A stretch of 45,536 nucleotides of DNA from Escherichia phage vB_EcoS_WFI, in the sequence record NC_073058.1; one strand, given 5' to 3'. Shown piece by piece: positions 16,824 through 45,536 of this stretch. Numbering within the stretch: the stretch's first letter is position 1; each line of letters begins with the position of its first letter. The notes below the pieces were generated by a model. That model did no database searches, was not told where the DNA came from, and saw nothing but the letters and a program-made list of their open reading frames with translations. A program made the position numbers and the translations under genes.

Positions 16824-16828
16824 TGAAG

Positions 16829-17139
16829 CGGGACAAAACGGGACGTCCCGCTTTGTCCCGTTTTGCAAAACTGCATACTTACTCACTTTCATTGCATAAA
16901 CTCAAAGCGGGACGAGCGGGACGTCCCGATCCGTCCCGCCCCCTAAATGTGCATACCTATTCAGATTTCGTGCATAAAACAAACGGGACAGAAAGCGGGA
17001 CAAACATGGGGCGGGACAAAGCGGGACAGCACCCCGTCCCCGTCAGTGCTGCCGCGGGTTTCAGCCGATCGGGACAAGCGGGACAAACCCCAGTCTTTCA
17101 GACTAGACGGGGGTCAATGGCCCCCCTCGTCTGAGACTG
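16829..17139. repeat. iteron array (about 10 direct and 5 inverted CGGGACA units) ending in a ~50-nt imperfect palindrome; homologous to 45264-45421
   Basis: Visible repeats GCGGGACAA / GTCCCGC; palindrome CAGTCTTTCAGACTAGACGGGGGTCAATGGCCCCCCTCGTCTGAGACTG at 17091-17139; conserved block GGGGCGGGACAARGCGGGACAGCACCCC shared with the second copy. Confidence 0.7.
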
Positions 17140-29412: not shown

Positions 29413-29436
29413 AAGGGGCCATACGGCCCCTTTTTT
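29413..29436. terminator. terminator between convergent tail fiber and leftward genes
   Basis: AAGGGGCCATACGGCCCCTT hairpin followed by TTTTTT. Confidence 0.6.
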
Positions 29437-30010: not shown

Positions 30011-30052
30011 TGTGAAGTCCTCATTGCTGCGGGCCGAAGCCCGCTATTAGAA

Positions 30053-30575: not shown

Positions 30576-30636
30576 GATGTTTTCCTTTTAGTGGGGGCCG
30601 GATTGCCCCCGACGCGTTAACTATAGTGCAACCAAC

Positions 30637-32488: not shown

Positions 32489-32568
32489 CGTAATGTCTCC
32501 AGGTATTAAAAAGGGCGTCCAACCGGACACCCTTAAGATAATGCAACCAATCTAATTACGCAACCAAT

Positions 32569-32892
32569 TTATTCATAAAAATTTGGGTCGCGCGCTACGT
32601 CTACCAGATACAAGTTGCTCATGCGGTTGCCGTAGTGCCCTGGCGTGCGCTGGCGGCACACAACGGCGAAGCCTGGAGGGATTGTATTGCCAGTCTCGAT
32701 AATCCACGCCACGCGCGCGCCAGACAGCGTCTTGCCGTTGCATTCGATACGAGTACCGCCATCAGCGGTGTTAAGGTTGCCAATCTTGCAGCCGGTGGAC
32801 TTCAGACGGATGACGCCGGTTTTGCTGTCGTAGGTGAATAACTGGTTAGTCATTGCAACCGAGAAGTCGATGGCTTCGAATGTAGTATTCAT
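32569..32892 (-). CDS. hypothetical protein, possibly degenerate HNH/AP2-like DNA-binding fold
   Basis: Pattern G.IRLKS...NGK...ARVAW...G.IP.G resembles HNH_3-type proteins but catalytic His positions are unclear. Confidence 0.3.
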   Translation of the reverse strand: MNTTFEAIDFSVAMTNQLFTYDSKTGVIRLKSTGCKIGNLNTADGGTRIECNGKTLSGARVAWIIETGNTIPPGFAVVCRQRTPGHYGNRMSNLYLVDVARDPNFYE

Positions 32893-33584
32893 TTTAAATT
32901 TTCCTCATTGACTGCTATTGCGAAGCCGCGCGGAGTGAGCGACCGGATTAATTTGGTGCGGGCAGATTTGCCACCGAGGCGACTATACTGCTTCGAGTAC
33001 CCTTTTTCAACGAATACCGGCTTTTTCTCCGGCATACGAAAGCCATTGCCGGTCCATAAACAGGTCAGCTTTGGATATGAATCGCGGTCGTTGATGTATT
33101 CCGGGAACAACGGATGTACGTCATCCTCCGGCAGATAGCCGCCATACTCCCACGGATCAAACGAGTGGTCTGGCTTGCGCCACTGGGTGGATAGCACACT
33201 GCGCGGATTCTCAATCATATATGGCACTTCAAAGAAGTCACCCAGGTAAGCGGCAATCTTCGCGGTGCGCACTGCCTTAAGCTGAAAGGCGGGGTCTTTC
33301 GCACGCTTGCACGGGAAAGCTGGCGCACCGCTCACCGCCAGATCCGTACACGGCGGAAACGCGTAGATAATATCCGGCGTGCCGAAATCGCCATTCATCG
33401 CGCGGTCCACGAAGTCCAGATCGATAAACTCGTTACGATAGCGGATACCGCGACCATAAATCCGGTAGTCAAGGTAAGACCCGTGATCGGCTTCCGAGTA
33501 GTTGAAACAGTAGCATTTATGCCCCATCTCGGCAGCGCGCTCTATCATCAAGCCGCTGCCGTCAAATAATGACCAGATAATCAC
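32889..33584 (-). CDS. short C5-cytosine methyltransferase-like protein (no obvious target-recognition domain)
   Basis: Motif I-like LFDGSG, PC motif FPPCTD, ENV-like MIENP; only 231 aa. Confidence 0.5.
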   Translation of the reverse strand: MIIWSLFDGSGLMIERAAEMGHKCYCFNYSEADHGSYLDYRIYGRGIRYRNEFIDLDFVDRAMNGDFGTPDIIYAFPPCTDLAVSGAPAFPCKRAKDPAFQLKAVRTAKIAAYLGDFFEVPYMIENPRSVLSTQWRKPDHSFDPWEYGGYLPEDDVHPLFPEYINDRDSYPKLTCLWTGNGFRMPEKKPVFVEKGYSKQYSRLGGKSARTKLIRSLTPRGFAIAVNEENLK

Positions 33585-35005
33585 TTGCGCACCTTCTTAG
33601 CTTTCATGTATTCCATCAAGTCGTCCTGGATGTCGCGCTTACCATCGCGGCGGTCCGCCACCAGTTCGTCCAGTGTCCCGCGTGCCTGGATAATATAGAC
33701 GAATACCGGTCGAGGGTGCCCGGCTTGCATCTGGCGAACTGGCCCGATACGCTCCACGATCTGCGCAAAGTGCTCATAGTTCCACGTATCCGAGAAGATA
33801 GCCAGGTGATGACCGCCGTCCTGCAAGTTAAGGCCGTGACCAGCCGATGCCGGGTGTGCGAACATGATGGGAATCTCGCCCCTGTTCCACGCTTCCATAT
33901 CCTTATTGCCCTGCTTACCCTTACCCATCGCAACGCCGTGGGGAAACTTCTTCTTCAGACGTGCCAGGTCGTGCTTGTACTGGTACGCAACGAGCAACGG
34001 CGCTCCGTTCAACTCCTCTACGATACTTTCCAGCGCGTCCAGCTTGGCGTCGTGAATCTTCTCCCACTCGTCGGTCCGCTCTCCGTCTTCGTCCACCTTA
34101 TACACGGCACCGGATGCAAGCTGAAGGCACTTGATGGTCTTAGCCGCAGCGTTCGCCGCTTCCACTGTTCCGCTTTCCAGTTCGGCAAATAGCTCACTCT
34201 CAAACTGGTCATAAATCTTGCGGGCTTTCTTCGGCAGGTCCACGACAACCGGCGTGTAGATTGGCTTGTCACATCCGAAGTATTCAGCCGCGTCCACGGT
34301 AAGGGATACATCGGACAGGCGCTGTTGGATCTCCTTCTCGGAGTTCTTTAGCGGGGCGTGCTGCATAGTGAAGCTGCCTGGCTTAACAGGCTTGCTAATA
34401 AACCAGCGATCGGTGAATGCCTTATAGCTACTGCCGAGGCGTTCGCCACCGTCGACAAACCACGTCTGACCCCATAAGTCTTTTAGCCCGTTTGGCGCTG
34501 GTGTGCCGGTAAGGTTAATCCAGCGCTTGACGTGTTTATGTGCAATCGCTGCCAGTGCGCGGGCGCGCTTGCTCCCCTGCTTGCTACGATAGCCTTTCAG
34601 CTTAGTCGATTCATCGGCAACAACCACCGTAAAGGGCCACGCATCGCCGTAATAGTCGACCAGCCACTCAACCACATCGTAGTTAACACAAACCACGTTA
34701 GCGTCGCTCTCAAGCGCGGCTATGCGGTCCTTCTCTGGTCCAGTGCCGTCTACGACCAGCAGGGATGAGAACCGCCATTTCTCCTGTTCCGGGGGCCATG
34801 TGCCGGAGGCAACGCGTAGCGGGGCCAGCACCAGTACGCGGTCCTCCTGGTTGGACAGGATGCCAGTCTGGAACATTTTGTTTAGCGCCCACATAGTCGC
34901 GCCGGTTTTACCGGACCCCATTGTCGCCCAAATATTGCAGCGCTCATGCTTGAGAATAAACGCGGTTATCAATTTCTGATATTCGCGACGTCGGAATCGT
35001 GCCAT
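33581..35005 (-). CDS. superfamily-2 DNA helicase
   Basis: Walker A TMGSGKTG and DEAD-like VVADESTK; start at 35005 with RBS. Confidence 0.75.
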   Translation of the reverse strand: MARFRRREYQKLITAFILKHERCNIWATMGSGKTGATMWALNKMFQTGILSNQEDRVLVLAPLRVASGTWPPEQEKWRFSSLLVVDGTGPEKDRIAALESDANVVCVNYDVVEWLVDYYGDAWPFTVVVADESTKLKGYRSKQGSKRARALAAIAHKHVKRWINLTGTPAPNGLKDLWGQTWFVDGGERLGSSYKAFTDRWFISKPVKPGSFTMQHAPLKNSEKEIQQRLSDVSLTVDAAEYFGCDKPIYTPVVVDLPKKARKIYDQFESELFAELESGTVEAANAAAKTIKCLQLASGAVYKVDEDGERTDEWEKIHDAKLDALESIVEELNGAPLLVAYQYKHDLARLKKKFPHGVAMGKGKQGNKDMEAWNRGEIPIMFAHPASAGHGLNLQDGGHHLAIFSDTWNYEHFAQIVERIGPVRQMQAGHPRPVFVYIIQARGTLDELVADRRDGKRDIQDDLMEYMKAKKVRK

Positions 35006-35009
35006 ATCT

Positions 35010-35234
35010 TTATTCCGCCTTTTTCCAGACTTCGGTTTCACTGTTCCAATTCCTCTTTGTGGCGTCGTAGTTGGTGGCGTGTCCAATGTGCACACCGGTC
35101 GCGCGGAAGCTCTTAAACTTCTGCCAGCACACTGTCAACGGCAGCGGGTAATTCATGCCTGCGATAAACCATACGCGATCGCCAGGTTTGCACTCTCCCA
35201 GCTTGGTGAGTCGGTAATGTTCTTTCATCGTCAT
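35010..35234 (-). CDS. hypothetical protein (74 aa)
   Basis: ORF track; tight spacing. Confidence 0.4.
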   Translation of the reverse strand: MTMKEHYRLTKLGECKPGDRVWFIAGMNYPLPLTVCWQKFKSFRATGVHIGHATNYDATKRNWNSETEVWKKAE

Positions 35235-35270
35235 GCCTCCAAAAATGGCGGGACAAGCCCGCCGTATTGA

Positions 35271-35444
35271 TTATTCTTGTTCTGCGCGATAGCGGCGCTG
35301 CCGATCACGTTCTTTCTTATTGCGGCACGATTTGCACTCGGCCCGATGCCCGTCTGGACTGCGCGCAGTCTTTCCGGTGTATTTGTGGAACTGGGATAGC
35401 GGCTTGATGCATCCGCAATTACTACAACGTTTTTCTTCAATCAT
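35271..35444 (-). CDS. small zinc-ribbon protein (57 aa)
   Basis: CSNCGC...CKSCRNKKER; RBS GAGGA. Confidence 0.45.
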   Translation of the reverse strand: MIEEKRCSNCGCIKPLSQFHKYTGKTARSPDGHRAECKSCRNKKERDRQRRYRAEQE

Positions 35445-35484
35445 TTCTAAAATCCTCGATAGGGCTAACCGGCACACTATACCG

Positions 35485-35763
35485 CTACGCGACCAATTCA
35501 GCAACCAATAAATCGCAGTCGGCTATGTTGTCAATAACGCGAACGTCAGCACCGCGGCGGGCCATTCGCTCATGTTCTCGCACCTGGTGCGGCTTCGGTT
35601 TTCCTCCGGGGCGCTTCACTTCGACGAATACTATGATGCCGTTGATGATAATAATCAGGTCGGGCGCACCTGCGCGCCCCTCCCATGCCAGCTTGCGGCA
35701 GAATCCGCCAACCTCTTTCACCCGTCGCATCAGGTGACTTTGAATATTGCCTTCTGGTGTCAT
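35485..35763 (-). CDS. VRR-NUC domain nuclease
   Basis: Motifs PDLIII..G.IVFVEVKRPGGK. Confidence 0.6.
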   Translation of the reverse strand: MTPEGNIQSHLMRRVKEVGGFCRKLAWEGRAGAPDLIIIINGIIVFVEVKRPGGKPKPHQVREHERMARRGADVRVIDNIADCDLLVAELVA

Positions 35764-35951
35764 TTGGTTTGCAACTCCACGTTACGCAGACGTAGATCTA
35801 CCGGTATGTCAGATCTACCGGTTAGCGCCAGCGCCAGGTTTTCAGGCGTGACAAGTGCCGTGATGGTCTTGCCACGTTCCAGTCTAAGGACGATGCGAAT
35901 CTCGTCATCGTCCGTCGCGCCAGCGCGCATTATGCTTAATTCTGCTTTCAT
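35760..35951 (-). CDS. hypothetical protein (63 aa)
   Basis: ORF track, start trimmed to ATG 35951. Confidence 0.35.
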   Translation of the reverse strand: MKAELSIMRAGATDDDEIRIVLRLERGKTITALVTPENLALALTGRSDIPVDLRLRNVELQTK

Positions 35952-35955
35952 AATC

Positions 35956-38247
35956 TTACTTCCTGTACCGATACATAATGTCGCCTTCGGCGGCAAGTGG
36001 GAAACCTTTCGCCCATATAGGCAGGTCACACATCAGCGCGCAAAGCTCCTCGGTCGTGTAATCGTCGGTGTCCGGCACTTCGGTGATCAATTCATCGTGC
36101 ACTGACAGGACGATTTCATAGCCCGCAGCTTCAACACCAGGCATGGACCATGCGAGAATATCGCGGCACAACGCCTGTACGATGTTCTCCGTAAGTTTGC
36201 CGCCGTAGGTGTACTGGAATCCCCACTGGCGCGTCGTCTGATTCTCGCCCTGGTATTTGATGCGGGTACTGGTGCGCTTCTTGCCGGTGTCTTCGTCAAT
36301 CTCGGTAGTGACAGACAGCGCGATTCCGGGGTAGCTCATGATTCGCCCTGACGGCAACTCAACCTTCAGCCACCAGCCCGCGGCGTTCGGGTCGTCGCGT
36401 TCCTCGTCAAAGGTGGGGTCGTGCTTCGCCTTCGTGCGCACAATCTTGAGCGCTTTCTTGCCATCCGGGCGAACGTTCGCGCCAGCCCAGTATGCCTTAC
36501 CTGGATTGCGTATCGCACATAACACCGCCTCCTCAAGCTCGGCCCAAAAGGCTACGGTCTTCGGGTGAGATTCACGCCACATACGTTTGATCGCGTCGCA
36601 GGTCAACCACACGTTTTTAGGCAGTATGTAAGTCGGGCGCTCGTCTTTCTTGCCGGGCTTCGGCGGGCGCTTCGCTTCGTTGATGCGGGCAAACTCATAA
36701 CCGCGTTTAGCCGCCGCCCAAATATGATCGGGGAATGTTCCCTTCATGACGTCAGCCATTGCGTACAGGTCGAGGCCCAGGTTTTTAGCAAACTGCAAGA
36801 ACGCCGCGACGCCGCCACCATAGCCCAGTCCCAATTCACACGCCTTACCAATCTGGCGTAGGTCTTTGCGGTTGGCTTTGATGTAGTCCGGGTCAAGGCC
36901 AAACATCTTACCGGCAGTTTCACAATAGATATCGCGTCCGGCCTTAAACACCATAAGCGCGGTTTTCTCGCCAGCGATCCAGGCAAGGCCACGCCCTTCC
37001 ACGTTGGAGTAGTCCGCTACAACAAACTTCTTGCCCTTAGCCGGGATAATGCACCCGCGAACGGTCGAGGCGGTTAGCTTCGATATGTCATACGCCCAGT
37101 GCGCGGTCCCGCGTAACAGGGAGTTGATGCCGTTGGTGAGCATGTGCGACCGTACCCAAAACGAGACGTCGCTCTCACCTTCGCGGCGCTTAATCTTCCC
37201 TTCGTGGTCATCACTGTACTCGCCACGTGCCAGGTTTTGAGGCTGAAAGCCTTTACCGGCCCAGCGTAGTGTGCGCTTTGCCCCACCATACTGAAGACAA
37301 CCACGGCGGCGACCATCGGCAGAAAGACCATTGACGAGCGGATTGTATTTAGTCGATGCCGTTGATGACGCGCCGAGGCGCATTTCAATAAGCACTTTGC
37401 CCTCGTCGGGGAAGTCTGGATCTTCCAGCAAGTCATTCAGCGTGGATTTCTGCGCGTTGTGAATGGTGAACGCCGGGGCAATATCACGCAGGATTGGCAG
37501 GAAGTCATTACCGGTCAGTTTACCGCCGAACAGTTCCCAGGCTTCTTCCTTCAATTCTTCTTTGTGCACCTGCACCGCCTTGATCGCGGCGTTCGCCAGG
37601 TCAACGTCCACATAGAAGCCACGGTCGTTAATCAACTGGTCGATACGCAGGATTTCATCTTCCTTCGGTGAGTTGCCCCAGTCCGGTATTCGCCAGTAGA
37701 CTTCACGCATTGCGATAATATCCAGCGCGGCATAGCGCAGGAATTTAGCCCATTCTTCAGGGTGAGTCTCGCGCGTGTAGCGGCGGATTTTGTAGGTCTT
37801 AGGGGTCGGCTTACAAAATCGCTTAATCAGCGCCTTGCCTGCCTTATCCTTCGCGTGCTCTGCGTCAACGCCCAGCACCTGGCATTGCATATCGAGGCCA
37901 CCCGGCAGCGCGTGACGAAAGGCCATAATCATCGTATCTTCGATCTGGCTTACCGGCAGGTCGATGCCCCACTTTTCACGGATAACCAGGCGGTCAAACA
38001 GGAGGCCGTTAGCCATCACTATTTTTGCTTTCTTGCGGGTTACCTGGCGTAGCGCCTTGCGCAGTTCACGCGGCATCGTGGGGGATTCAGTGGCGTCCCA
38101 TGTCTGCACGCGGCCCTCGTCGATGGCGTAGGTGCAAATCATAATCTCGGTGGATGGGTGTTCTGCATAGGCATACGCACCTGCTTTCTTCAGGTCCACC
38201 CCGCTATATGTCTCGGTGTCAAGAAACAGGCGTTCGAAGTCTTTCAT
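35956..38247 (-). CDS. DNA polymerase I (family A) with 3'-5' exonuclease domain
   Basis: Exo motif FLDTETYS; polymerase motifs RDIYCETAGKMFG, KACELGLGYGGG, LSVHDELITEV. Confidence 0.9.
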   Translation of the reverse strand: MKDFERLFLDTETYSGVDLKKAGAYAYAEHPSTEIMICTYAIDEGRVQTWDATESPTMPRELRKALRQVTRKKAKIVMANGLLFDRLVIREKWGIDLPVSQIEDTMIMAFRHALPGGLDMQCQVLGVDAEHAKDKAGKALIKRFCKPTPKTYKIRRYTRETHPEEWAKFLRYAALDIIAMREVYWRIPDWGNSPKEDEILRIDQLINDRGFYVDVDLANAAIKAVQVHKEELKEEAWELFGGKLTGNDFLPILRDIAPAFTIHNAQKSTLNDLLEDPDFPDEGKVLIEMRLGASSTASTKYNPLVNGLSADGRRRGCLQYGGAKRTLRWAGKGFQPQNLARGEYSDDHEGKIKRREGESDVSFWVRSHMLTNGINSLLRGTAHWAYDISKLTASTVRGCIIPAKGKKFVVADYSNVEGRGLAWIAGEKTALMVFKAGRDIYCETAGKMFGLDPDYIKANRKDLRQIGKACELGLGYGGGVAAFLQFAKNLGLDLYAMADVMKGTFPDHIWAAAKRGYEFARINEAKRPPKPGKKDERPTYILPKNVWLTCDAIKRMWRESHPKTVAFWAELEEAVLCAIRNPGKAYWAGANVRPDGKKALKIVRTKAKHDPTFDEERDDPNAAGWWLKVELPSGRIMSYPGIALSVTTEIDEDTGKKRTSTRIKYQGENQTTRQWGFQYTYGGKLTENIVQALCRDILAWSMPGVEAAGYEIVLSVHDELITEVPDTDDYTTEELCALMCDLPIWAKGFPLAAEGDIMYRYRK

Positions 38248-38414
38248 TGCTTTATCCTCACTACTGCGTCAGCGCTGCCGATCATGGAGAAGATACCATC
38301 CGACAAGGCAATCTCTTCGCCGTTGTTGCGAATCTCGGCAACGGTAAAATACTCGCCCAGCAATTTGGACCATACACGCATTCCGACTTTTACTTCACTG
38401 GCTTTAATACGCAT
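38244..38414 (-). CDS. small hypothetical protein (56 aa)
   Basis: RBS AGGA; stop overlaps the DNA polymerase ATG (ATGA). Confidence 0.35.
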   Translation of the reverse strand: MRIKASEVKVGMRVWSKLLGEYFTVAEIRNNGEEIALSDGIFSMIGSADAVVRIKQ

Positions 38415-38427
38415 TTTTCATTGTCCT

Positions 38428-38456
38428 AATAAAAAGCCCGCAATAAGCGGGCTTGA
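38428..38456 (-). terminator. rho-independent terminator (minus strand)
   Basis: AGCCCGC-TTATT-GCGGGCT hairpin followed by TTTTT on minus strand. Confidence 0.45.
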
Positions 38457-38472
38457 ATAGTGGGCTTTGCCC

Positions 38473-39261
38473 TTAACGGCGGCGACGTTTACGTGGTGCT
38501 TCGTCTTCGTCGTCGTCGTCCTCATCTTCGTCATCGCGGGACTTTCGACGCTTGCGAGGTTTTTCGTCTTCCTCGTCTTCGTCATCGTCATCACGACGCT
38601 TGGATTTCTTGGACTTGCGCGGCTTATCATCTTCGTCATCGTCATCACGACGTTTGGACTTCTTAGCCTTGCGCGGTGCTTCATCTTCGTCATCGTCGCC
38701 CAGGTCGTCATCGGAACAAGAAGACCCGCCGCCACCGAAGGAGTCACCATCGTCACGGAAGCGAAGACCCATCAAGCCAGCACCGAGACCTTTACCGTTG
38801 GTGTTGTTCCACGCCCAAATATCCAGGGACACGTTGCAATAACAACCGGAATAGATTTCCTGGCCTTCGATCTCGTCGCCGTCGATGGTCAGACCCTGTT
38901 CGGTCTGCTTCTCGCCCAGTGACGTTTGAATGTTAGGCTGTTTGAACGATTTGGCGTTGATGTACAACATGCCTTCGAATTCTTCGGTTACTTCGTCGCG
39001 CTCGTCGCCGTCACGAACTGCGCATTCCTTAGAATCCTGGGCGTAGTGGCGGTCCATCCACTTATCGGCGTTCTTCTCGGATTTCAGCTTGTCGGTAAGC
39101 ACTGCGCGCGCTGCCGCTTCCACTTTGTCCACCTGCGGATCTTCTTTATCAAGAAGAATCACGGCACGGTATGCCGGTTTTTGTCCATCCTGTTTAGGGG
39201 TATCACGTTCCCAAATTTTCAGGAAGCATACTCGTACATTTTTCAGGTTGACTTTAGCCAT
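38473..39261 (-). CDS. ssDNA-binding-like protein with highly charged repetitive C-terminal tail
   Basis: N-terminus MAKVNLKNVRVCF; C-terminus has three tandem units of DDDEDE...PRK.KKSKRR; gene linked to exonuclease and polymerase. Confidence 0.5.
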   Translation of the reverse strand: MAKVNLKNVRVCFLKIWERDTPKQDGQKPAYRAVILLDKEDPQVDKVEAAARAVLTDKLKSEKNADKWMDRHYAQDSKECAVRDGDERDEVTEEFEGMLYINAKSFKQPNIQTSLGEKQTEQGLTIDGDEIEGQEIYSGCYCNVSLDIWAWNNTNGKGLGAGLMGLRFRDDGDSFGGGGSSCSDDDLGDDDEDEAPRKAKKSKRRDDDDEDDKPRKSKKSKRRDDDDEDEEDEKPRKRRKSRDDEDEDDDDEDEAPRKRRRR

Positions 39262-39350
39262 TTCTCAATTCCTCATTTCGCATGTATCGGGGTTATTGTG
39301 AGCCACCCCGTTCGGCTTGGTTGCTAATTTACTTGGTTGCGCCTAAGCGG

Positions 39351-39593
39351 TCAAGCACTTTTATTAAAAAGATTTCGCGTCACGTAGTTGGTGGCGTTCT
39401 CGATCCAGCTTAACGGCGGTCGGTCGATGTGCTTCTCGACCCAATCGACGGCAACGTCGCTGTAGCCATCGTCCAGCCAGCGGGACGGATGGCGAATCAT
39501 CCAGGCCACCATTAACACGCCTTGCACGCAATGCAGGATAAAGCCCAGCGCGCCGAGCATAATCATCAATACGAATGCAAACACCTTATTCAT
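39351..39593 (-). CDS. small membrane protein (80 aa)
   Basis: Two hydrophobic helices. Confidence 0.45.
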   Translation of the reverse strand: MNKVFAFVLMIMLGALGFILHCVQGVLMVAWMIRHPSRWLDDGYSDVAVDWVEKHIDRPPLSWIENATNYVTRNLFNKSA

Positions 39594-41016
39594 TACTTAA
39601 GTCCTCATCAGTAGCTTCAGACCACGCAGGGCGCGGGTCGTCGATTGGTGCCAATACCGGTTTAGCCGGTGCGCGCGTGATTTTATCACACAATTTCGCC
39701 CACACTTTCGGTTTCTCGTCCTTCAATACCTTCTCGGCATCGGTAGGACTGAGCAATGTTTCTTTGTACATTACATCGCGCTTGATCCGGGCCTTCGTGA
39801 AGATTTCAATCACTTCGCTCTCATCCGCCCACTTGCGATTACCTTCCTTACCGGCAACCATCTTGAGGCCCAGCGATTCGCCATCACCCGCCATCACCGC
39901 CTTGAATACTGCGGACTCGATAGCCTTGATGTGCTGACGCATTGCGTCGAGGCCTTCGTATGCATTACGCAGTTCCGCCGCGCTCATAGCGCCATTGGAT
40001 TCTTCCTTATAGCCGCGCTTCGCACGTCGTGCCGCTTTCCGGGCTTCGCGGGCTGTATTGCGGTCGTGGTTGGCGCATTCTTCTTCTGTCGCCACGCTCA
40101 CGTCGTCCGCCAGGTCGTCGTCTGTTGCCGTTGGTGGGGTCATCGTGTCGATGGCGGCCTTAGCGCGGGCACTACACTGATCCGCAAATCGGCACCACTG
40201 ACAGGCGTCAACGCTCGGTCGGAAGTCGGCACGGGTAAGTCCCTTCTTGCCTCGGGAATACGCGTCCAGTGCCGCGACCGCTCGCTTGGACGCAAACTTA
40301 GCGAATATCTCCAGCGCTTCCACTGTAATATCCCACTCCGACGCCCCGCCGCAATACGGCTGGAAGATTACCAGGCGAACGGTCGTAATGTCGTACATGG
40401 TTTGCAGCTTGCGCAGCAGGCCCAGCGCGTACAACATAAGCTGTTTGTTTTCTTTCGCCTCGACCTTATGTCGCCCGGTCTTCAGGTCGCCAACAATAAG
40501 CATGTACGTGCCGTCGGTCTTCTTCATGACCATGACCATATCGGCAGTGCCAAACGTCTTCACCCTGTTGCCGTCTATCTCGAAGCCAGGGTGCAAGATG
40601 CGGGTGAGATCGGCGCGCATTTCAAGCTGGACAAACTCCGCCACTTCAAGGAGCGGTCGCCAGTGGTCGATGTACGCGTCACACTGTTTCACCATATCGT
40701 CGTTGACCAGTACGCCGCCTTTCGGTGCTTTCGGGTGCGCCTTTACCGGCCCCTTACCTTCGTTCTCAACGTAACACCCTTTGTACGTCTTCGCGGATAG
40801 CTTCTTCTCTCCGGCAATGATGCGGTTTAGCACGACTTCTGATACGGTGTGCATACTCGTACCGTTAATCGCAGCTTGCCCGGATTCGTTCGGGATACCT
40901 TTTTCGACTACCAGGGCGGCGGGGCACCCCATCCATTTTTTAGATCCCGATGGCCCGAGTAATGAGTGTTCGGTATTGCTACCGGATTGCGTTTTGCGCT
41001 TTGGTTTAATAGCCAT
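39586..41016 (-). CDS. Cas4/RecB-like PD-(D/E)xK exonuclease
   Basis: 476 aa; C-terminal Cys cluster CQWCRFADQC; co-located with SSB-like gene and polymerase. Confidence 0.55.
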   Translation of the reverse strand: MAIKPKRKTQSGSNTEHSLLGPSGSKKWMGCPAALVVEKGIPNESGQAAINGTSMHTVSEVVLNRIIAGEKKLSAKTYKGCYVENEGKGPVKAHPKAPKGGVLVNDDMVKQCDAYIDHWRPLLEVAEFVQLEMRADLTRILHPGFEIDGNRVKTFGTADMVMVMKKTDGTYMLIVGDLKTGRHKVEAKENKQLMLYALGLLRKLQTMYDITTVRLVIFQPYCGGASEWDITVEALEIFAKFASKRAVAALDAYSRGKKGLTRADFRPSVDACQWCRFADQCSARAKAAIDTMTPPTATDDDLADDVSVATEEECANHDRNTAREARKAARRAKRGYKEESNGAMSAAELRNAYEGLDAMRQHIKAIESAVFKAVMAGDGESLGLKMVAGKEGNRKWADESEVIEIFTKARIKRDVMYKETLLSPTDAEKVLKDEKPKVWAKLCDKITRAPAKPVLAPIDDPRPAWSEATDEDLSNE

Positions 41017-41201
41017 TATTCCACCCTTGTAAACTGGACAATTACATATTTACAGATATTAGCCATTCCCGCCTGTTCGACACGGCGGTGCACTTCATGC
41101 TGCGCATCTATCCAGCACATCGAGGCGTCATGGTTAACAACCATAAAAGAGAAGTGGTCGTTTGTTTTGTGGCAAGTTGCCAGCACGAAGAATTTAGCCA
41201 T
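41016..41201 (-). CDS. hypothetical protein (61 aa)
   Basis: ATG 41201 with RBS GGGAGA. Confidence 0.35.
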   Translation of the reverse strand: MAKFFVLATCHKTNDHFSFMVVNHDASMCWIDAQHEVHRRVEQAGMANICKYVIVQFTRVE

Positions 41202-41452
41202 TATTTCGTCTCCCAACGGTCAATTACTTTTTCCTCCGACGATACGGCAAAGCGAACATATTCCAGATTGGAGTCCGCCCAAATATAGAAGTCGGGGTTA
41301 GTAAATGTGGTGCGCTTAATTTGCGCGGGGTTATCGCGGCGTTTATCTATTACGGCAACGCGTGATTTAAAGTTGCCGGTACGTTCGAATAGCCAATAAT
41401 AAGGGCGCTGGTCGCGTGAATCCACCGCCTCGATTAGCGTGAAGCGTGCCAT
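41201..41452 (-). CDS. hypothetical protein (83 aa)
   Basis: ORF track. Confidence 0.4.
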   Translation of the reverse strand: MARFTLIEAVDSRDQRPYYWLFERTGNFKSRVAVIDKRRDNPAQIKRTTFTNPDFYIWADSNLEYVRFAVSSEEKVIDRWETK

Positions 41453-41462
41453 TGTCTCGTCC

Positions 41463-41494
41463 TCTAAAAATAGGCCCGCAGATTAGCGGGCCGG
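41463..41494 (-). terminator. rho-independent terminator (minus strand)
   Basis: GGCCCGCTAATCTGCGGGCC hairpin followed by TATTTTT on minus strand. Confidence 0.45.
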
Positions 41495-41500
41495 ATAATA

Positions 41501-41626
41501 TTAATCTTCACCGCCGAGTTGTCTATAAACCTCGTCCGGGTCGTCGCCTCTTTCTTCGCAGAAGGCGGTGAATGCCGCCCAATTTTCTGCTATGAAATCG
41601 AGCGTGATTCTCATTTCATAGTCCAT
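41501..41626 (-). CDS. possible small acidic protein (41 aa)
   Basis: ATG 41626; MDYEMRITLDFIAENWAAF...; below ORF-track size cut-off. Confidence 0.3.
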   Translation of the reverse strand: MDYEMRITLDFIAENWAAFTAFCEERGDDPDEVYRQLGGED

Positions 41627-41630
41627 TATA

Positions 41631-42149
41631 TTAATCTTCTAATTCGAAATAAGTTTCGACGATTGCTTTTAATTCCTGGTGGAACTCTTCCACGTCGTCA
41701 TCTTCCAGCTTGGCAACGGATTTAATTTCGAATTCTTCCAGCAGGTCGTCAAATTCGTCGTTTGCGTCGTCGTCATCACCGCCAGCAATAATAGCGGCAT
41801 ACTGCTTGATTTCGTCGCGCATCTCTTTCAGCGGATCGGCATCTTTCTTGCCTTTACCTTTCGCCGGTGCTTTCTTAGATTTCGCCGGGGCTTCTTCTTC
41901 GTCGTCCGCGTCGTCTTCTTCTACGGCTTCTTTCTTAGCCTTGCCCTTTGCTGGCGCTTTTTTGGTCTTAGCCGGTGCTTCGTCTTCAGCGTCGTCATCT
42001 TCGACTACTTCTTCTTTTGCCTTGCCCTTAGCCGGGGCTTTCTTCGCTTCCTGTTTACCAACGGCAGCGCCAGCAGTTTCATAATGCTTAGCGATGGTTT
42101 CCAGTGCTACTACGCCGCGTGTGATCAGGTTTACGATTTGCTCAAACAT
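41631..42149 (-). CDS. Lys/Ala-rich and acidic repeat protein (histone-H1-like repeats, acidic C-terminus)
   Basis: RBS GGAGA before ATG 42149; three tandem units KKAPAKGKAK...EEDDA(E/D)DE; first gene downstream of the strong leftward promoter. Confidence 0.6.
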   Translation of the reverse strand: MFEQIVNLITRGVVALETIAKHYETAGAAVGKQEAKKAPAKGKAKEEVVEDDDAEDEAPAKTKKAPAKGKAKKEAVEEDDADDEEEAPAKSKKAPAKGKGKKDADPLKEMRDEIKQYAAIIAGGDDDDANDEFDDLLEEFEIKSVAKLEDDDVEEFHQELKAIVETYFELED

Positions 42150-42345
42150 TGTATATCTCCGATTGGTTAAGTTTAGGTGTCGGCAGTCAACTTCGTCGGT
42201 GGCCTTAACATAGTGCCAGGTTACGCGTTCTCCCTTTCGGGTAGTGGACCTGGTTATATAATCACGGTTGGGAATCCTGACACTTCGATCCGGCCCCTGC
42301 GTTGCCCCTCTCCAGTTTGCGTCCTGCATCCTGTCGACGGAGTGA

Positions 42346-42552: not shown

Positions 42553-42882
42553 ATGCATATCAACGACGCTATCGAAATGTTAACTAAGACCGTAAGCGGT
42601 GAGACAAGCCGGTCCTGGGCTTATACCGATGCCGTTGGTGCGGCGTTATTTGAAATCGAACGCCTGCGCAGTGTCGAAAAAGAATTGCGCGCCAAGCTGG
42701 AATTACTCAACGGTACGGCAGCAAGCAAGCTGCAAAAACACAATGAAGAAATGGAAGAATACAAAAAGCAGGTTATCCGTTTACGCGACGAGGGCAAGTC
42801 CTGGGCGATGATTGCCGAGTTGACCGGAATTAATCAGAGCACCGTGCGCTCCTGGGTACGCAATAATAAAACTTCTAAGTAA
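42553..42882 (+). CDS. HTH-type transcriptional regulator (putative)
   Basis: RBS AGGAGA; C-terminal WAMIAELTGINQSTVRSWV resembles an HTH. Confidence 0.5.
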   Translation: MHINDAIEMLTKTVSGETSRSWAYTDAVGAALFEIERLRSVEKELRAKLELLNGTAASKLQKHNEEMEEYKKQVIRLRDEGKSWAMIAELTGINQSTVRSWVRNNKTSK

Positions 42883-42892
42883 GGCAACGGCA

Positions 42893-45157
42893 ATGAGCTT
42901 AATTAAATTCGCAGTAACAAGACCCGCTAAAAAAGGCGAAAAAGCCAGGGCGGAAAACTTCGAGATGACCACTGATGAGTTTTTCGAATTTATCAATGAT
43001 GCGAAAGAAATCTCCTCGGTGCACATCAACAAGACTGAAGATAAAGCCGAGTATGCGCGCCGCAAGCGTAAGGCCGATGGCATCGTGGCCTATACCAATG
43101 ATGGGTTACGCCGCAAGACCAGTGCGGTCGACCGCTCGATCCTGTTCTTCGATATTGACCGCACCGACACCCGCACATTACGCCGCTGCCGTAAAGCGTT
43201 CACCGACGCTGGTCTGGAGCATGTATTCCACACCACGACCGGCGACCGTCACCCACTGAAAGGCGGCACACGTTGCGCCCGTTTCCTGGTGCTCACTGAC
43301 AAGCCTGTACCGGCTGAAGACCTGGGCCGCGTCCAGTATGCATTGTTAGACCAACTGGGCTTGTCAGATGTGGACTTCGACGATTGTACAAAAGACACAA
43401 ACCGCCTTATGTACCTGCCTCACCAGCAGTCTGTCATAAAGTGCCACTACGGCAAGCGCGCCCGTGTCCGTCGTCTGCTTCGCCTGGCGGATAAGCTGGG
43501 AGTGGAGAAAGAGGAAGTGCGCCGCGAACTGACCCAGGGCGACGACGGCGTGGCGGACGGGATTCTGGATTGGTGCTTCCAGGCTGGCTTTGAACCACTG
43601 TCATCCGGTCGCGGTTATGAAGTGCCTTGCCCGAACGAGCACCTGCATAGCGGCGGCGGGTCGACGGCTATCATGGTTAAGGATGGCGAGATCCGTTTCA
43701 AGTGTATGCACACCGGCAACGAATGCTGTTCCGAACTGAATAAACACCAGCACCTGGCGTTACGTCTGATTGGTATCCCGGACCACTTGAACGTCGAGCC
43801 ACACAACATGTCACGCAAGCAAATCGCCGCAATCCTTCCGGGACTGGACGACGAGGAAGTGGAATCGTGCTATGAACATATTGTTGATGCGGTCGGAGAC
43901 GGCGACGAGTACGGCGAATGCACCGACGCTGACCTGGACAACGAGCCGGTCGCTCTGTTCAGTAAGCACGACCCGATTATCGAAGGCCTGGTCAACTTCA
44001 AATCTACCTGGTATATGGCGGGTGAGTCGAACATTGGTAAGTCGTTCTACGTGCTGGGCCAGATGGGCGCTGTTGCCGCGGGGATTCCGTTCGGTGGCGC
44101 GAAGGTCGTCCAGTCGCATTGCTTCTATTTCGATGCGGAAGGTGGCGAAGCCTCCAACCAGCGTAAGGAAGCATTGCAGATTAAATACGAGCACGACCTC
44201 GACAAGCTGCACATTATCGACCTGCAATCACGCGGCTGGGATATTACCAGCAAGTCAGGCTTGCGCGAGGTTATCAGCTTTATCAACCGCACCGCTAACG
44301 GGGAGCCGGTTGGCCTGGTGGCCTTCGACTCACTCAACCAGACTGTAGCGCTGCGGTCCGCTGATGCCAAACCGTTCGACGAGAACAACGCAAGCGATAT
44401 GGGTGAAGTGGTCAAAGCGCTGAAGTCCATTGCGGAAAATACAGGCGGCAGTGCGGGCGTCATCCATCACCCGGCTAAGGGTGCAAACGGCAGCAGATCC
44501 CCACGCGGGTCCGGCGCGCTTCATGGTGCTGTCGATTCTGCGTTCTTCCTGGAACAGCCGGACGATAATCAGCCAGGCCAACTCAACCTGTATCACGAAA
44601 AATCCCGTAACGGCATCAAGCAAGCGCCGCGTGGCTTCGTCCTGCTCAAGTGCAAAGTTAAGGTGGATCTCCGTAAGTCTGATGCGTTCGAAGCCCACCA
44701 GTCCACCAGCACCGGGCCAGACTTCGGCGATGTGGTTGCCGGTTGGGACGTCAAGCCAATTGCATCCACGCCACGCGACGAGACTCTCTACCTCGTACCG
44801 GTCGCCCTGGCACCGTTCGCTATCGAACAGGCTAAGGCAGCAGGCAAGGCCGCAGTTAAGGAAGAGAACACCGCCGGACCGCGCAACGAGAAAGAGAAGG
44901 TGCTTTATGCGGCACTGGAAAAACTGATGGAAGATAACCCGGACCATACTGGATTCAGTAAATCGGCAATTGTCCGCCAGGCTGGACTTGCGAAAGGTGG
45001 CACATCGACGAAGGCAATTGACGATATGGTGGAGCGCGGCGTGCTCGGGTTTTATACAGATCCACACACCGGGGCCATCTATGGGTCGTCGAATCTGGTC
45101 ATCAAATCGGATATACCCATCACGCTTTCAGCGACCGATGATGACTTAAAAGATTAA
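42893..45157 (+). CDS. primase/helicase fusion (primase-polymerase-like N-domain plus RepA-like RecA-fold ATPase)
   Basis: N-terminal ILFFDIDRTD and HVFHTTTGDRHP; C-terminal Walker A GESNIGKS and motifs VAFDSLNQ, VIHHPAKG. Confidence 0.6.
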   Translation: MSLIKFAVTRPAKKGEKARAENFEMTTDEFFEFINDAKEISSVHINKTEDKAEYARRKRKADGIVAYTNDGLRRKTSAVDRSILFFDIDRTDTRTLRRCRKAFTDAGLEHVFHTTTGDRHPLKGGTRCARFLVLTDKPVPAEDLGRVQYALLDQLGLSDVDFDDCTKDTNRLMYLPHQQSVIKCHYGKRARVRRLLRLADKLGVEKEEVRRELTQGDDGVADGILDWCFQAGFEPLSSGRGYEVPCPNEHLHSGGGSTAIMVKDGEIRFKCMHTGNECCSELNKHQHLALRLIGIPDHLNVEPHNMSRKQIAAILPGLDDEEVESCYEHIVDAVGDGDEYGECTDADLDNEPVALFSKHDPIIEGLVNFKSTWYMAGESNIGKSFYVLGQMGAVAAGIPFGGAKVVQSHCFYFDAEGGEASNQRKEALQIKYEHDLDKLHIIDLQSRGWDITSKSGLREVISFINRTANGEPVGLVAFDSLNQTVALRSADAKPFDENNASDMGEVVKALKSIAENTGGSAGVIHHPAKGANGSRSPRGSGALHGAVDSAFFLEQPDDNQPGQLNLYHEKSRNGIKQAPRGFVLLKCKVKVDLRKSDAFEAHQSTSTGPDFGDVVAGWDVKPIASTPRDETLYLVPVALAPFAIEQAKAAGKAAVKEENTAGPRNEKEKVLYAALEKLMEDNPDHTGFSKSAIVRQAGLAKGGTSTKAIDDMVERGVLGFYTDPHTGAIYGSSNLVIKSDIPITLSATDDDLKD

Positions 45158-45263
45158 ATTTTGCGCGCATTGGTTGCCATTTTGAGTGTTTTTAGCTGGT
45201 CGCATTGGTTGCCGTGTAGTGTGAATATAGTGAATAGTTATGCATTTTTATTGCATAAAGTAA

Positions 45264-45421
45264 GCGGGACAAAAAGCGGGACAGACAGGGGGCGGGACAA
45301 GGCGGGACAGCACCCCCGTCCCGCCCCGGATTACGCGGCTTGCGGGGGAGCGGGACAGGCGGGACAACTCCCAGTCTTTCAGACTAGACGGGGGTCAGTT
45401 GGCCCCCCTCGTCTGAGACTG
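45264..45421. repeat. iteron array plus ~50-nt imperfect palindrome, second copy of the 16829-17139 element
   Basis: GCGGGACA units; palindrome CAGTCTTTCAGACTAGACGGGGGTCAGTTGGCCCCCCTCGTCTGAGACTG at 45372-45420; flanking TGCATAA repeats. Confidence 0.7.
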
Positions 45422-45536
45422 CATAAAATCCTGGATTGCATAATGTACGGCAGTATGATGCGAATTGCGGTCGTTGATGAACTAGGCAACCAATGCGAGT
45501 TGTATTATGGTGAGTGAAAAATGCAGTTTGCAGTTA

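What the first reader, a model, noticed from the sequence alone, without database searches (positions are those of the whole stretch)
45158..45442. Candidate replication origin: AT-rich stretch, iterons and palindrome immediately downstream of the primase-helicase gene
The second copy of the iteron/palindrome element begins about 100 nt after the stop of the primase/RepA-like helicase gene (42893..45157). An AT-rich segment with two ATTGGTTGC motifs precedes it. Iterons next to an initiator gene is the classic layout of plasmid and phage origins. The short ORF at 45443-45517 starts in the same TGCATA-ATG context as the tape measure gene.
Basis: inference. Interest (0 to 1): 0.8.

Follow-up and report, generated by a model that had tools for sequence, protein, structure and literature searches.

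The report
Likely phage replication origin with iterons
The repeat-rich, gene-free stretch just after this E. coli phage's primase-helicase gene is real, conserved and best read as the phage's replication origin, a known kind of element that has not yet been mapped experimentally in this phage group.

Summary
The window is a complete Dhillonvirus (HK578-like coliphage) genome. In detail: six direct GCGGGACA repeats plus one inverted copy, a 22.5% GC stretch and a 50-nt hairpin follow the primase-helicase stop codon.

A 79%-identical copy lies upstream of the tape-measure gene. Across 19 Dhillonvirus genomes the octamers and hairpin stems are conserved. Spacers and the loop vary, with 1-nt indels, so the region is non-coding.

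Key evidence: most relatives sampled, down to 37-44% helicase identity, keep the same module right after the same gene. The short repeat is lineage-specific, with about ten types seen. The helicase's C-terminus, one of its least conserved parts, models as a winged helix. Its N-terminus has an archaeo-eukaryotic primase fold.

This matches self-loading initiator-helicase origins (SaPI Rep/PriRep, P4 alpha, pRN1 ORF904). I read it as an origin, confidence about 0.6, with no experiment behind it.

Side finding: the octamer ACGGCAGC occurs 29 times against 2.8 expected. It is strand-biased, lies in all reading frames, and its bias starts at this element.

The parts
42553..42882 (+). Small helix-turn-helix protein gene (109 aa), first gene of the primase-helicase operon. 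Probably the operon regulator, as ORF56 is in pRN1.
   Evidence: Pfam HTH_23, HTH_28 and Sigma70_r4_2. Relatives carry a non-homologous HTH_3 protein at the same position.
42893..45157 (+). Primase-helicase gene. Three domains: N-terminal archaeo-eukaryotic primase fold, central RepA-like AAA_25 helicase (aa 357-531), and C-terminal winged helix (about aa 665-740). It is the proposed initiator.
45169..45212 (+). Two ATTGGTTGCC motifs (45169-45177 and 45204-45212). They are members of a genome-wide promoter/operator-like motif family. The second overlaps a minus-strand ACGGCAAC (45208-45215).
45220..45262 (.). AT-rich segment (22.5% GC) and candidate unwinding region. It holds the palindromic box TGAATAGTTATGCA (45231-45244) and a TGCATAA half-site (45252-45258).
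   Evidence: for composition. The box TGMATANNTATKCA gives 4 hits against 0.28 expected, three of them in the two elements. The identical box occurs in relatives that carry different iterons.
45264..45309 (+). Four direct GCGGGACA iterons, starting at 45264, 45276, 45292 and 45302.
   Evidence: Iteron columns are 89% conserved against 73% for spacers across 18 other genomes.
45316..45323 (-). One inverted iteron. It reads CGTCCCGC here and TGTCCCGC in the relatives I read by eye.
45350..45366 (+). Two further direct GCGGGACA iterons (45350 and 45359).
45372..45421 (.). Composite GC-rich hairpin: CAGTCT..AGACT enclosing GACGGGGG-loop-CCCCCCTCGTC.
   Evidence: DNA fold -12.6 kcal/mol, z = -3.6. 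Stems are 98% conserved and the loop 55%. Hairpins of different sequence occupy the same place in other lineages.
45420..45454 (+). TGCATAAAATCCTGGATTGCATAATG followed by ACGGCAGT (45447-45454). The latter reads ACGGCAGC in most relatives. The ATG at 45443 is not conserved.
16826..17139 (+). Second, fuller copy upstream of the tape-measure gene. It holds two palindromic iteron quartets (16826-16863 and 16905-16941) and two AT-rich boxes (16872-16899 and 16950-16977). It also holds six direct iterons (16984-17085) and the same hairpin (17091-17139).
   Evidence: Nearly all of the 157 Dhillonvirus records show two places. It is absent from Cornellvirus.

Best explanation
The region 45158-45454 is the replication origin, or one of two origin-like sites, of this Dhillonvirus. 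It is served in cis by the product of the gene just upstream.

Proposed mechanism:
1. The 754-aa protein is a self-loading initiator with an archaeo-eukaryotic primase domain, a RepA-like helicase domain and a C-terminal winged helix.
2. The winged helix binds the GCGGGACA iterons, which are arranged as direct repeats plus a converging copy.
3. Several protomers assemble on the array and open the adjacent 22.5% GC segment.
4. The helicase ring loads onto single-stranded DNA.
5. The conserved GC-rich hairpin, and possibly the nearby ACGGCAGC-type site, then marks where the primase domain lays the first primer.

The palindromic TGAATAGTTATGCA box is identical in lineages with different iterons. 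It is probably read by a conserved factor, either a host protein or a conserved phage domain.

The copy upstream of the tape-measure gene would be a second origin or a cis enhancer. P4 crr and SPP1 oriR are precedents recalled from my own knowledge.

Shown: the sequence anatomy, its conservation, its linkage to the helicase gene, lineage-specific repeat turnover, and the domain folds. Inferred: who binds what, DNA melting, priming, and origin activity itself.
For: 1. Iteron enrichment and clustering: 13 against 1.95 expected, and 21 of 38 CGGGAC hexamers fall in the two loci.

2. Purifying selection acts on octamers and hairpin stems, not on spacers or the loop. There are 1-nt indels and a 56-nt deletion in EE09, so the region is non-coding.

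3. The palindrome spacers I compared by eye do not co-vary. This points to DNA sites rather than RNA stems.

4. All eight lineages first examined (44-68% helicase identity) have a 290-650 nt gene-free gap directly after the helicase stop. Most of these, and most of the wider IMG/VR set, hold a lineage-specific short repeat in both orientations. The types seen are GCGGGACA, GGGGGAGA, CGGACAA, TTCCGACA, AGGGATAA, GGGGATGA, GGGAT(C), ACTCGCAA/TCGCAA and TTCCGCACA. A long hairpin follows.

5. Genes downstream of the gap differ between lineages, and so does the upstream small HTH gene. The helicase gene is the constant neighbour.

6. In the one complete Cornellvirus genome, the only iteron cluster is the one after the helicase gene: 7 of 9 GGGGAGA.

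7. The helicase C-terminus is among its least conserved parts. Its predicted recognition helix differs between iteron groups and is similar within groups. It folds as a winged helix resembling Cdc6/ORC winged helices.

8. Precedents with the same layout: SaPI Rep/PriRep winged helix with 5-6-nt iterons immediately downstream of rep and an AT-rich centre (PMC9371898); pRN1 origin stem-loop downstream of orf904; P4 alpha and RSF1010 (all in PMC4234260).

9. In HK578, escape mutants from the OLD defence map to this helicase-primase and to its operon promoter. The authors treat it as the replication-initiation protein, and no origin is named in the passages retrieved (bioRxiv 10.64898/2026.07.10.737580).
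Against: - There are no replication data of any kind, so origin activity is inferred from anatomy and comparison only.
- Closely related phages share everything, so the match between winged-helix type and iteron type is confounded by phylogeny.
- The small upstream HTH protein also varies by lineage and could be the iteron reader.
- In this locus all iterons lie on one side of the AT-rich stretch. SaPI origins have them on both sides. Only the tape-measure copy and the Cornellvirus version flank it.
- EE09 is viable without 56 nt of this locus, a stretch that holds three of the seven iterons.
- Six IMG/VR relatives (L066-69, L073, L074) show no strongly repeated k-mer after the helicase gene, and in the one I read the module is absent. 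L080, with a different C-terminus, shows only GCAACCAA and TGCATAA motifs.
- The module also sits at the boundary between the replication operon and the long rightward late operon. A transcription-control element would sit there too.
- GC skew follows gene orientation and is uninformative.
- DnaA boxes are not enriched.
Confidence: 0.6

Rival explanations
1. Transcription-control region at the early/late boundary. The repeats would be binding sites for a lineage-specific phage regulator, for example the small HTH protein encoded upstream of the helicase. That regulator would switch on, insulate or boost the long rightward late operon. The tape-measure copy would be a booster for tail genes.
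For: - Both copies lie in the rightward transcription unit, and everything from 104 to 29408 is on the + strand.
- Five TTGGTTGC promoter/operator-type sites surround this locus, and a sigma-70-like promoter (TTGCAT-17-TAGATT) follows at 43-71.
- The first palindrome of locus 1 is annotated as a terminator in HK578.
- The upstream HTH protein changes family between lineages, as the iterons do.
Against: - Seven to fourteen short sites in mixed orientation is unusual for an activator or repressor and typical of origins.
- No sigma-70 consensus promoter lies inside either element.
- Downstream genes differ among lineages while the helicase gene is the constant neighbour.
- The T-run after palindrome 1 is not conserved.
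- Cornellvirus has no copy in its tail operon.
Confidence: 0.2
2. Structured RNA element made from the rightward transcript. It could be an antitermination (put-like), processing or stability element, or a small RNA, present in two copies.
For: - The 218-nt RNA folds at -92.5 kcal/mol with z = -5.05.
- The hairpin stems are 98% conserved with a free loop.
- Both copies share orientation with transcription.
Against: - No Rfam family matches at gathering score, and the only E<1 hit is a meaningless miRNA match.
- The direct repeats have no pairing partners.
- The palindrome spacers I compared do not co-vary.
- Stems never vary within the genus, so no compensatory change supports pairing.
- The repeat sequence is replaced wholesale between lineages while its number and arrangement persist. 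That is the behaviour of protein-binding sites.
Confidence: 0.07
3. Packaging (pac/cos-B-like) or recombination site. The repeats would bind the small terminase or a recombinase, as in the P1 or SPP1 pac sites (comparison from my own knowledge).
For: - Several public records from different submissions end about 115 nt to the right of the hairpin, as this window does.
- From my own knowledge, pac sites can consist of clustered short repeats.
Against: - The terminase genes lie about 5.5 kb away in both Dhillonvirus and Cornellvirus.
- PhageTerm reports give headful packaging for Opt-212 and BF9. For EE09 they give a cos end (ATCTTAAGGG), which matches window 32530, about 13 kb from the element.
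- A second copy inside the tail operon would be harmful for a packaging signal.
Confidence: 0.05

Closest known systems
SaPI replication module: Pri, Rep (or fused PriRep5) and ori (Staphylococcus pathogenicity islands)
   Same: - A self-loading helicase-initiator, fused to the primase in SaPI5, carries a C-terminal winged helix that reads short iterons.
- Six to twelve iterons lie immediately downstream of the rep ORF.
- An AT-rich region is present and some iterons point in opposite directions.
- Iterons and specificity differ between elements (PMC9371898).
   Different: - The Rep1 and PriRep5 ATPase domains are assigned to a different clade from the one found here, which is Pfam AAA_25, RepA/DnaB-like. 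There is no sequence homology.
- Here the iterons are 8 nt.
- In this locus the AT-rich part is on one side of the array.
- There is an added GC-rich hairpin, a conserved palindromic box and a second genomic copy.
Phage P4 alpha protein with ori and crr
   Same: A primase-helicase whose C-terminal winged helix binds repeats at the origin (PMC4234260). Two separate cis sites carry the same octamer-type repeats (ori and crr; from my own knowledge).
   Different: - The P4 primase is Toprim-type (PMC4234260), whereas this one has an archaeo-eukaryotic primase fold.
- The helicase family differs.
- No sequence match to any solved structure was found.
Archaeal plasmid pRN1: orf56/orf904 operon and origin
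   Same: - A small DNA-binding repressor gene is followed by a primase(AEP)-helicase-winged-helix protein.
- The origin is a stem-loop directly downstream of the replication gene, shown by deletion and relocation experiments.
- The same layout was noted downstream of similar proteins in Bordetella phages (PMC4234260).
   Different: - pRN1 has an SF3 helicase and no iterons.
- Here iterons dominate and the helicase is RepA-like.
IncQ plasmid RSF1010 oriV with RepA, RepB' and RepC
   Same: - Its origin has iterons, GC-rich and AT-rich segments, and hairpins (ssiA, ssiB) where the primase starts (PMC4234260).
   Different: - RSF1010 uses three separate proteins with a dedicated iteron-binding RepC. 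Here a single polypeptide carries its own winged helix.
- From my own knowledge, IncQ iterons are about 20 bp in 3.5 copies.
- Two ssi hairpins on opposite strands were not identified here.
Bacillus phage SPP1 oriL/oriR and lambda ori (from my own knowledge)
   Same: These are iteron arrays next to an AT-rich stretch, bound by a phage initiator. SPP1 has a second copy far away in the late region.
   Different: Those initiators (G38P, O) are not helicases and their origins lie inside the initiator gene. Here the site lies just after the gene and the initiator is the helicase itself.

Membership tests
Iteron origin served by a self-loading initiator-helicase with a C-terminal winged helix (SaPI Rep/PriRep, P4 alpha type) | The initiator is a helicase carrying a C-terminal winged-helix DNA-binding domain. 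| tested here: met
   [not shown]
Iteron origin served by a self-loading initiator-helicase with a C-terminal winged helix (SaPI Rep/PriRep, P4 alpha type) | Six to twelve short repeats lie immediately downstream of the initiator ORF. | tested here: met
   Seven sites lie at 45264-45366, starting 107 nt after the stop codon. The same position holds in most related lineages sampled.
Iteron origin served by a self-loading initiator-helicase with a C-terminal winged helix (SaPI Rep/PriRep, P4 alpha type) | An AT-rich segment is flanked on both sides by iterons pointing in opposite directions. | tested here: inconclusive
   In this locus the AT-rich stretch (45220-45262) has iterons on its right only, and one iteron is inverted. 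The flanked arrangement is present in the tape-measure copy and in Cornellvirus.
Iteron origin served by a self-loading initiator-helicase with a C-terminal winged helix (SaPI Rep/PriRep, P4 alpha type) | Iteron sequence and initiator specificity domain change together between elements. | tested here: met
   About ten repeat types were seen. Each goes with its own variant of the winged-helix recognition region, and lineage pairs sharing a repeat share the variant. Shared ancestry confounds this.
Iteron origin served by a self-loading initiator-helicase with a C-terminal winged helix (SaPI Rep/PriRep, P4 alpha type) | The initiator binds the iterons specifically, and the site supports replication with the initiator in trans. 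| not testable with these tools
   This needs EMSA or footprinting and a plasmid or marker-frequency assay.
Iteron origin served by a self-loading initiator-helicase with a C-terminal winged helix (SaPI Rep/PriRep, P4 alpha type) | The helicase is homologous to SaPI Rep or P4 alpha. | tested here: not met
   The only Pfam hit is AAA_25, RepA/DnaB-like. There is no sequence match to any PDB chain. It works like this family but is not a homologue.
IncQ (RSF1010) replication system | RepA-type helicase and RepB'-type primase. | tested here: met
   [not shown]
IncQ (RSF1010) replication system | A separate RepC initiator and about 20-bp iterons. | tested here: not met
   The DNA-binding domain is fused to the helicase. 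The repeats are 8 nt.
IncQ (RSF1010) replication system | Two single-strand initiation hairpins (ssiA, ssiB) on opposite strands. | tested here: inconclusive
   One composite hairpin lies at 45372-45421. No second hairpin on the other strand was identified.
pRN1-type origin | A stem-loop directly downstream of an AEP-primase/helicase/winged-helix gene that is preceded by a small repressor gene. | tested here: met
   Gene order and folds. Hairpin z = -3.6, with counterparts in other lineages.
pRN1-type origin | SF3 helicase domain. | tested here: not met
   AAA_25 is the only helicase-domain match.
Known structured RNA families (Rfam), including antitermination RNAs | A match to a curated covariance model. 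| tested here: not met
   There were no matches at gathering score in the whole window. The only E<1 hit in 45100-45536 is a 20.7-bit miRNA match against a 100-bit threshold.
Protein-coding gene (annotated 'hypothetical protein' over the repeats in several GenBank records) | The reading frame is preserved among relatives. | tested here: not met
   Single-nucleotide indels and a 56-nt deletion occur within the region. The ATG at 45443 is absent from 17 of 19 genomes.

The most novel reading that the evidence does not exclude
The element is an origin that works together with a dedicated eight-base priming signal. ACGGCAGC (relaxed: ACGGCARC) would be the template sequence recognised by this family's archaeo-eukaryotic primase domain.

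One copy sits just past the origin hairpin in 16 of 21 lineages. From there the motif runs on one strand roughly every 1.5 kb through the first 25 kb, embedded in genes in every reading frame. It would mark the lagging-strand template of rightward forks or of rolling-circle replication.

In this reading the duplicated origin copy in front of the tape-measure gene, and the conserved TGAATAGTTATGCA box (resembling an ArgR operator by my recollection of the consensus), would be further control points.
Probability: 0.15. Interest if true: 0.75.

Novelty: new variant of a known kind. Interest (0 to 1): 0.5.

Why it matters
Dhillonviruses and the related Guernseyvirinae are common coliphages and Salmonella phages. 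They are used in phage collections (BASEL), in defence-system studies and in biocontrol. Their helicase-primase is already invoked as a trigger of anti-phage defence (OLD escape mutants in HK578), yet I found no mapped origin for them.

A defined origin with a predictable initiator-iteron code would have several uses.
- It would allow origin-swap and specificity experiments.
- It would give a cis element for phage engineering and phagemid-like vectors.
- It would help explain which DNA structures replication-sensing defence systems detect.

It would also extend the self-loading winged-helix initiator-helicase plan, known from SaPIs, P4 and archaeal plasmids, to a fusion of an archaeo-eukaryotic primase with a RepA-type helicase.

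The polar octamer, if linked to replication, would make fork direction and priming in these phages directly testable.

Tried and rejected
- **Known RNA families.** Rfam found nothing at gathering score in the whole window. The E-value search of 45100-45536 gave only a sub-threshold miRNA hit. There are no tRNA or tmRNA genes.
- **Sigma-70 promoters.** The promoter and terminator scans found no consensus promoter in either element. The terminator-like hits in locus 1 are the iteron palindromes read on the minus strand. The + strand T-run after palindrome 1 is not conserved in relatives.
- **DnaA boxes.** TTATNCACA with one mismatch gives 31 hits against 28.6 expected, so there is no enrichment. 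The one-mismatch boxes inside the elements cannot be claimed.
- **ArgR boxes.** TGAATWWWWATTCA with two mismatches gives 3 against 1.0 expected in the window and 4 against 1.5 in Cornellvirus. This is not significant as an ARG box. The narrower palindrome TGMATANNTATKCA is enriched, 4 against 0.28. The ArgR idea stays a lead recalled from memory, not a result.
- **Protein-coding reading of the repeats.** Rejected because of indels and loss of the start codon.
- **RNA-stem reading of the palindromes.** Rejected because the spacers I compared do not co-vary.
- **cos/pac reading.** Published terminus calls are headful for Opt-212 and BF9, and for EE09 a cos end that maps to window 32530, not to this element.
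- **GC skew as an origin marker.** It follows gene orientation only.
- **Sequence search of the helicase against PDB.** No meaningful match.
- **TALE-like hit.** The profile of the C-terminal domain hit the TALE-like protein BurrH at E = 1e-33. This is the sum of about 20 weak repeat matches of 5-12 bits each to a 'GFSxxxIVKIAGxxGG' motif. I treat it as a curiosity, not as homology.

Full report
**What the window is.** The 45,536-bp window is a complete Dhillonvirus (HK578-like E. coli siphophage) genome. It is 96-99% identical to several GenBank phages over the helicase region. The sequence runs continuously across the window ends in relatives, so position 45536 joins position 1. Genes from 104 to 29408 and from 42553 to 45157 are on the + strand. 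Genes from 29435 to 42329 are on the minus strand.

**Checking the observation.** The ORF 42893-45157 is the replicative helicase-primase. After its stop codon come the following features.
- Two ATTGGTTGC motifs at 45169 and 45204.
- A segment whose GC falls to 22.5% at 45220-45259, against about 55% for the genome.
- Four direct GCGGGACA octamers, one inverted copy, and two more direct copies.
- A 50-nt GC-rich hairpin whose DNA fold has z = -3.6.

GCGGGACA occurs 13 times in the window against 1.95 expected. A 178-nt stretch (45230-45407) is 79% identical to 16949-17126, just upstream of the tape-measure gene. That locus holds 14 CGGGAC sites: two palindromic quartets and a six-copy array, interleaved with two AT-rich boxes.

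**Conservation within the genus.** All 157 Dhillonvirus records carry the element, nearly always in two places. I aligned this locus from 19 genomes and the tape-measure locus from 16.
- Octamer columns are 89% conserved against 73% for spacers. For locus 1 the figures are 93% against 80%.
- Hairpin stems are 98% conserved and the loop 55%.
- Single-base indels occur, and EE09 lacks 56 nt containing three sites. The 'hypothetical protein' annotated over the repeats in some records is therefore not a gene.
- The spacers inside the palindromes, where I compared them by eye, do not co-vary. The conserved units are thus the hexamer/octamer sites, as expected for protein-binding DNA rather than RNA stems.
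- The ATG at 45443 exists only here and in one close relative, so the 24-codon ORF is not a gene either.

**Relatives outside the genus.** The helicase-primase has homologues at 37-69% identity in Guernseyvirinae (Cornellvirus and Jersey-like Salmonella phages) and in uncultured phages. All eight lineages first examined have a 290-650 nt gene-free gap directly after the helicase stop. In most of these, and in most of the wider set, the gap holds a short repeat in both orientations followed by a long hairpin.

The repeat differs by lineage:
- GCGGGACA in Dhillonvirus and a 68%-identity sister group
- GGGGGAGA in Cornellvirus and the VSiP phage
- CGGACAA
- TTCCGACA
- AGGGATAA
- GGGGATGA
- GGGAT(C)
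- ACTCGCAA or TCGCAA
- TTCCGCACA

The order of parts is the same where the module is clear. The box TGAATAGTTATGCA, often twice at 21-bp spacing, is identical across lineages whose iterons differ. Genes downstream of the gap differ between lineages, and the small HTH gene upstream changes family (HTH_23 against HTH_3). The helicase gene is the only constant neighbour.

In the complete Cornellvirus genome, 7 of 9 GGGGAGA copies lie in this one cluster and none precedes the tape-measure gene. The tape-measure copy is therefore absent from the one outgroup genome checked and is probably a Dhillonvirus duplication.

There are exceptions. Six IMG/VR relatives show no strongly repeated k-mer after the helicase gene, and the one I read lacks the module. 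One relative with a different C-terminus shows only TTGGTTGC-type and TGCATAA motifs.

**The protein.**
- Pfam sees only AAA_25, the RepA/DnaB-like helicase domain, at residues 357-531.
- The C-terminal 90 residues are among the least conserved parts of the protein, at 0.25-0.35 identity against 0.7-0.8 in the helicase core.
- The start of the predicted recognition helix differs between iteron groups and is alike within them.

**Interpretation.** The layout has four parts: a small DNA-binding gene, a primase-helicase with a C-terminal winged helix, short lineage-specific iterons, and an AT-rich stretch with a hairpin immediately downstream. This is the layout of known self-loading initiator-helicase origins.
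- SaPI Rep and the fused PriRep5 bind 5-6-nt iterons placed immediately after rep around an AT-rich centre (PMC9371898).
- The pRN1 origin is a stem-loop just after orf904, shown experimentally (PMC4234260).
- The same paper summarises P4 alpha, whose winged helix binds origin repeats. It also summarises RSF1010, with its iterons, RepA helicase and RepB' priming at hairpins.

I therefore read 45158-45454 as the origin, or one of two origin-like sites, with the winged helix as the iteron reader. My confidence is about 0.6. The helicase is not homologous to the SaPI, P4 or pRN1 helicases, so this is a new variant of a known kind rather than a family member. In HK578 the protein is already treated as the replication-initiation factor, and the passages I retrieved name no origin.

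**What argues against.**
- Nothing here measures replication.
- The match between winged helix and iteron is confounded by shared ancestry, and the upstream HTH protein also varies.
- In this locus the iterons lie on one side of the AT-rich stretch.
- EE09 tolerates loss of three sites.
- The module sits where a late-operon control region would sit, surrounded by five TTGGTTGC sites.

The main rival is a transcription-control element, at about 0.2. A structured RNA (about 0.07) and a packaging site (about 0.05) are less likely, for the reasons given under the rivals.

TTGGTTGC has 20 copies genome-wide, of which 15 are the longer ATTGGTTGC. The copies usually come in pairs placed over promoter elements. 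Examples are TTGCAT-17-TAGATT at 43-71 and TTGCAA-18-TATATT at 11.25 kb on the minus strand. Variants of the motif (TTGGCTG, TTGGCAGC, TTGGCCGC) occur in the other lineages. It is a general promoter/operator-type motif, not an origin mark. The TGCATAATG start context is a by-product of the duplication and is not conserved.

**Side finding.** ACGGCAGC occurs 29 times against 2.78 expected and is the commonest 8-mer on the + strand. The relaxed form ACGGCARC occurs 54 times against about 5 expected, split 39 + and 15 -.
- All 29 exact copies lie inside genes, in all three frames, and both sense and antisense. Selection therefore acts on the DNA.
- The bias is 26+/4- over 0-25 kb and about even over 25-45 kb. 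The + run begins at this element. The last minus copy, at 45208, overlaps the second ATTGGTTGCC. A degenerate + copy, ACGGCAGT, lies at 45447.
- The motif is equally enriched in HK578, EE09, LM40P1 and Cornellvirus.
- A + copy lies 206-330 nt after the helicase stop, just past the module, in 16 of 21 lineages.
- In Cornellvirus the copies at 6-12 kb, to the left of the module, are mostly minus. Those to the right are mostly plus.

A primase recognition signal on the lagging-strand template is one reading. A Chi-like or packaging-related polar signal is another. I could not test either.

Noticed in passing
whole window, e.g. 1086, 1786, 2840, 5197 ... 44487 (+); 23117, 26164, 27533, 29379, 33555, 43185 (-): The octamer ACGGCAGC occurs 29 times against 2.8 expected, and ACGGCARC 54 times against about 5. 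All exact copies lie inside genes, in all three frames and in both sense and antisense. The motif is strongly + biased over 0-25 kb and unbiased over 25-45 kb, and the bias starts at the element. It is enriched in all Dhillonviruses checked and in Cornellvirus. A + copy sits just past the iteron/hairpin module in 16 of 21 lineages. Its function is unknown; priming signal, Chi-like signal and packaging polarity signal are candidates.
   Followed up: partly
41, 72, 781, 3775, 3798, 11231, 11245, 21884, 27341, 30628, 30640, 32543, 32560, 35501, 39317, 39333, 42354, 45170, 45205, 45486: TTGGTTGC has 20 copies, of which 15 are ATTGGTTGC (0.63 expected). They mostly come in pairs 14-35 nt apart that overlap -35, spacer or -10/+1 positions of sigma-70-like promoters on both strands. 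Variants of the motif occur in related genera. This looks like the operator of a global phage regulator. The reader protein is unknown.
   Followed up: partly
16826-17207: A roughly 700-nt non-coding insert lies between the tail-chaperone genes and the tape-measure gene. It carries the fuller copy of the element, with 14 CGGGAC sites. Nearly all of the 157 Dhillonvirus records have it, and Cornellvirus lacks it. Its first palindrome is annotated as a terminator in HK578, but the T-run is not conserved.
   Followed up: yes
16872-16885, 16950-16963, 45231-45244; L037 13782-13816: The palindromic box TGMATA-NN-TATKCA gives 4 hits against 0.28 expected, with a TGCATAA half-site 21 bp downstream. 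It is identical (TGAATAGTTATGCA) in lineages with different iterons. It resembles tandem E. coli ArgR boxes by my recollection of the consensus, but the ARG-box pattern itself is not significantly enriched.
   Followed up: partly
44960-45060 (protein residues about 690-720): The H2-turn-H3 region of the winged helix ('GFSKSAIVRQAGLAKGGT...') matches the repeat motif 'GFSxxDIVKIAGNxGG' of the TALE-like protein BurrH. The summed E-value is 1e-33, but each of about 20 repeat matches scores only 5-12 bits. This is probably convergent.
   Followed up: partly
32530-32539 (-): ATCTTAAGGG is the 10-nt 5' cohesive end that PhageTerm predicted for the Dhillonvirus EE09. It occurs once here, overlapping the -10-like TATCTT and the region just downstream of a TTGGTTGC-type promoter. 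Two other Dhillonviruses were reported as headful packagers, so the nature of this end is unclear.
   Followed up: partly
45161-45517 and 45443-45517: The 118-aa TTG ORF over the repeats is annotated as a hypothetical protein in several GenBank records. Neither it nor the 24-aa ORF is supported: there are frame-breaking indels, and the ATG is missing from 17 of 19 genomes.
   Followed up: yes
26068-26098 and 29407-29437: Two 94%-identical terminator hairpins (AAGGGGCCATCCGGCCCCTTTTTT) bracket the block 26096-29408, which contains oppositely oriented genes.
   Followed up: no
3061, 8112, 12955, 18815, 20651, 29672 (+); 36370, 44703 (-): There are eight E. coli Chi sites (GCTGGTGG), where roughly one or two would be expected from length alone. 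Their orientation follows the two halves of the genome. Significance was not tested with shuffles.
   Followed up: no
27874-28041; 38501-38680; 41810-42044: In-frame tandem repeats lie inside genes. One is a 63-nt unit in the 27339-29408 tail-fibre-like gene. The others are acidic/basic 54-81-nt units in two minus-strand early genes.
   Followed up: no
L066-L069, L073, L074, L080 (IMG/VR relatives): Six relatives show no strongly repeated k-mer after the helicase gene; in L067, the one I read, a terminator-like hairpin follows the stop. L080 has a different C-terminal domain and only GCAACCAA (x7) and TGCATAA (x4) motifs, plus a 24-nt inverted repeat about 200 nt apart. These are useful natural controls for the origin model.
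   Followed up: no
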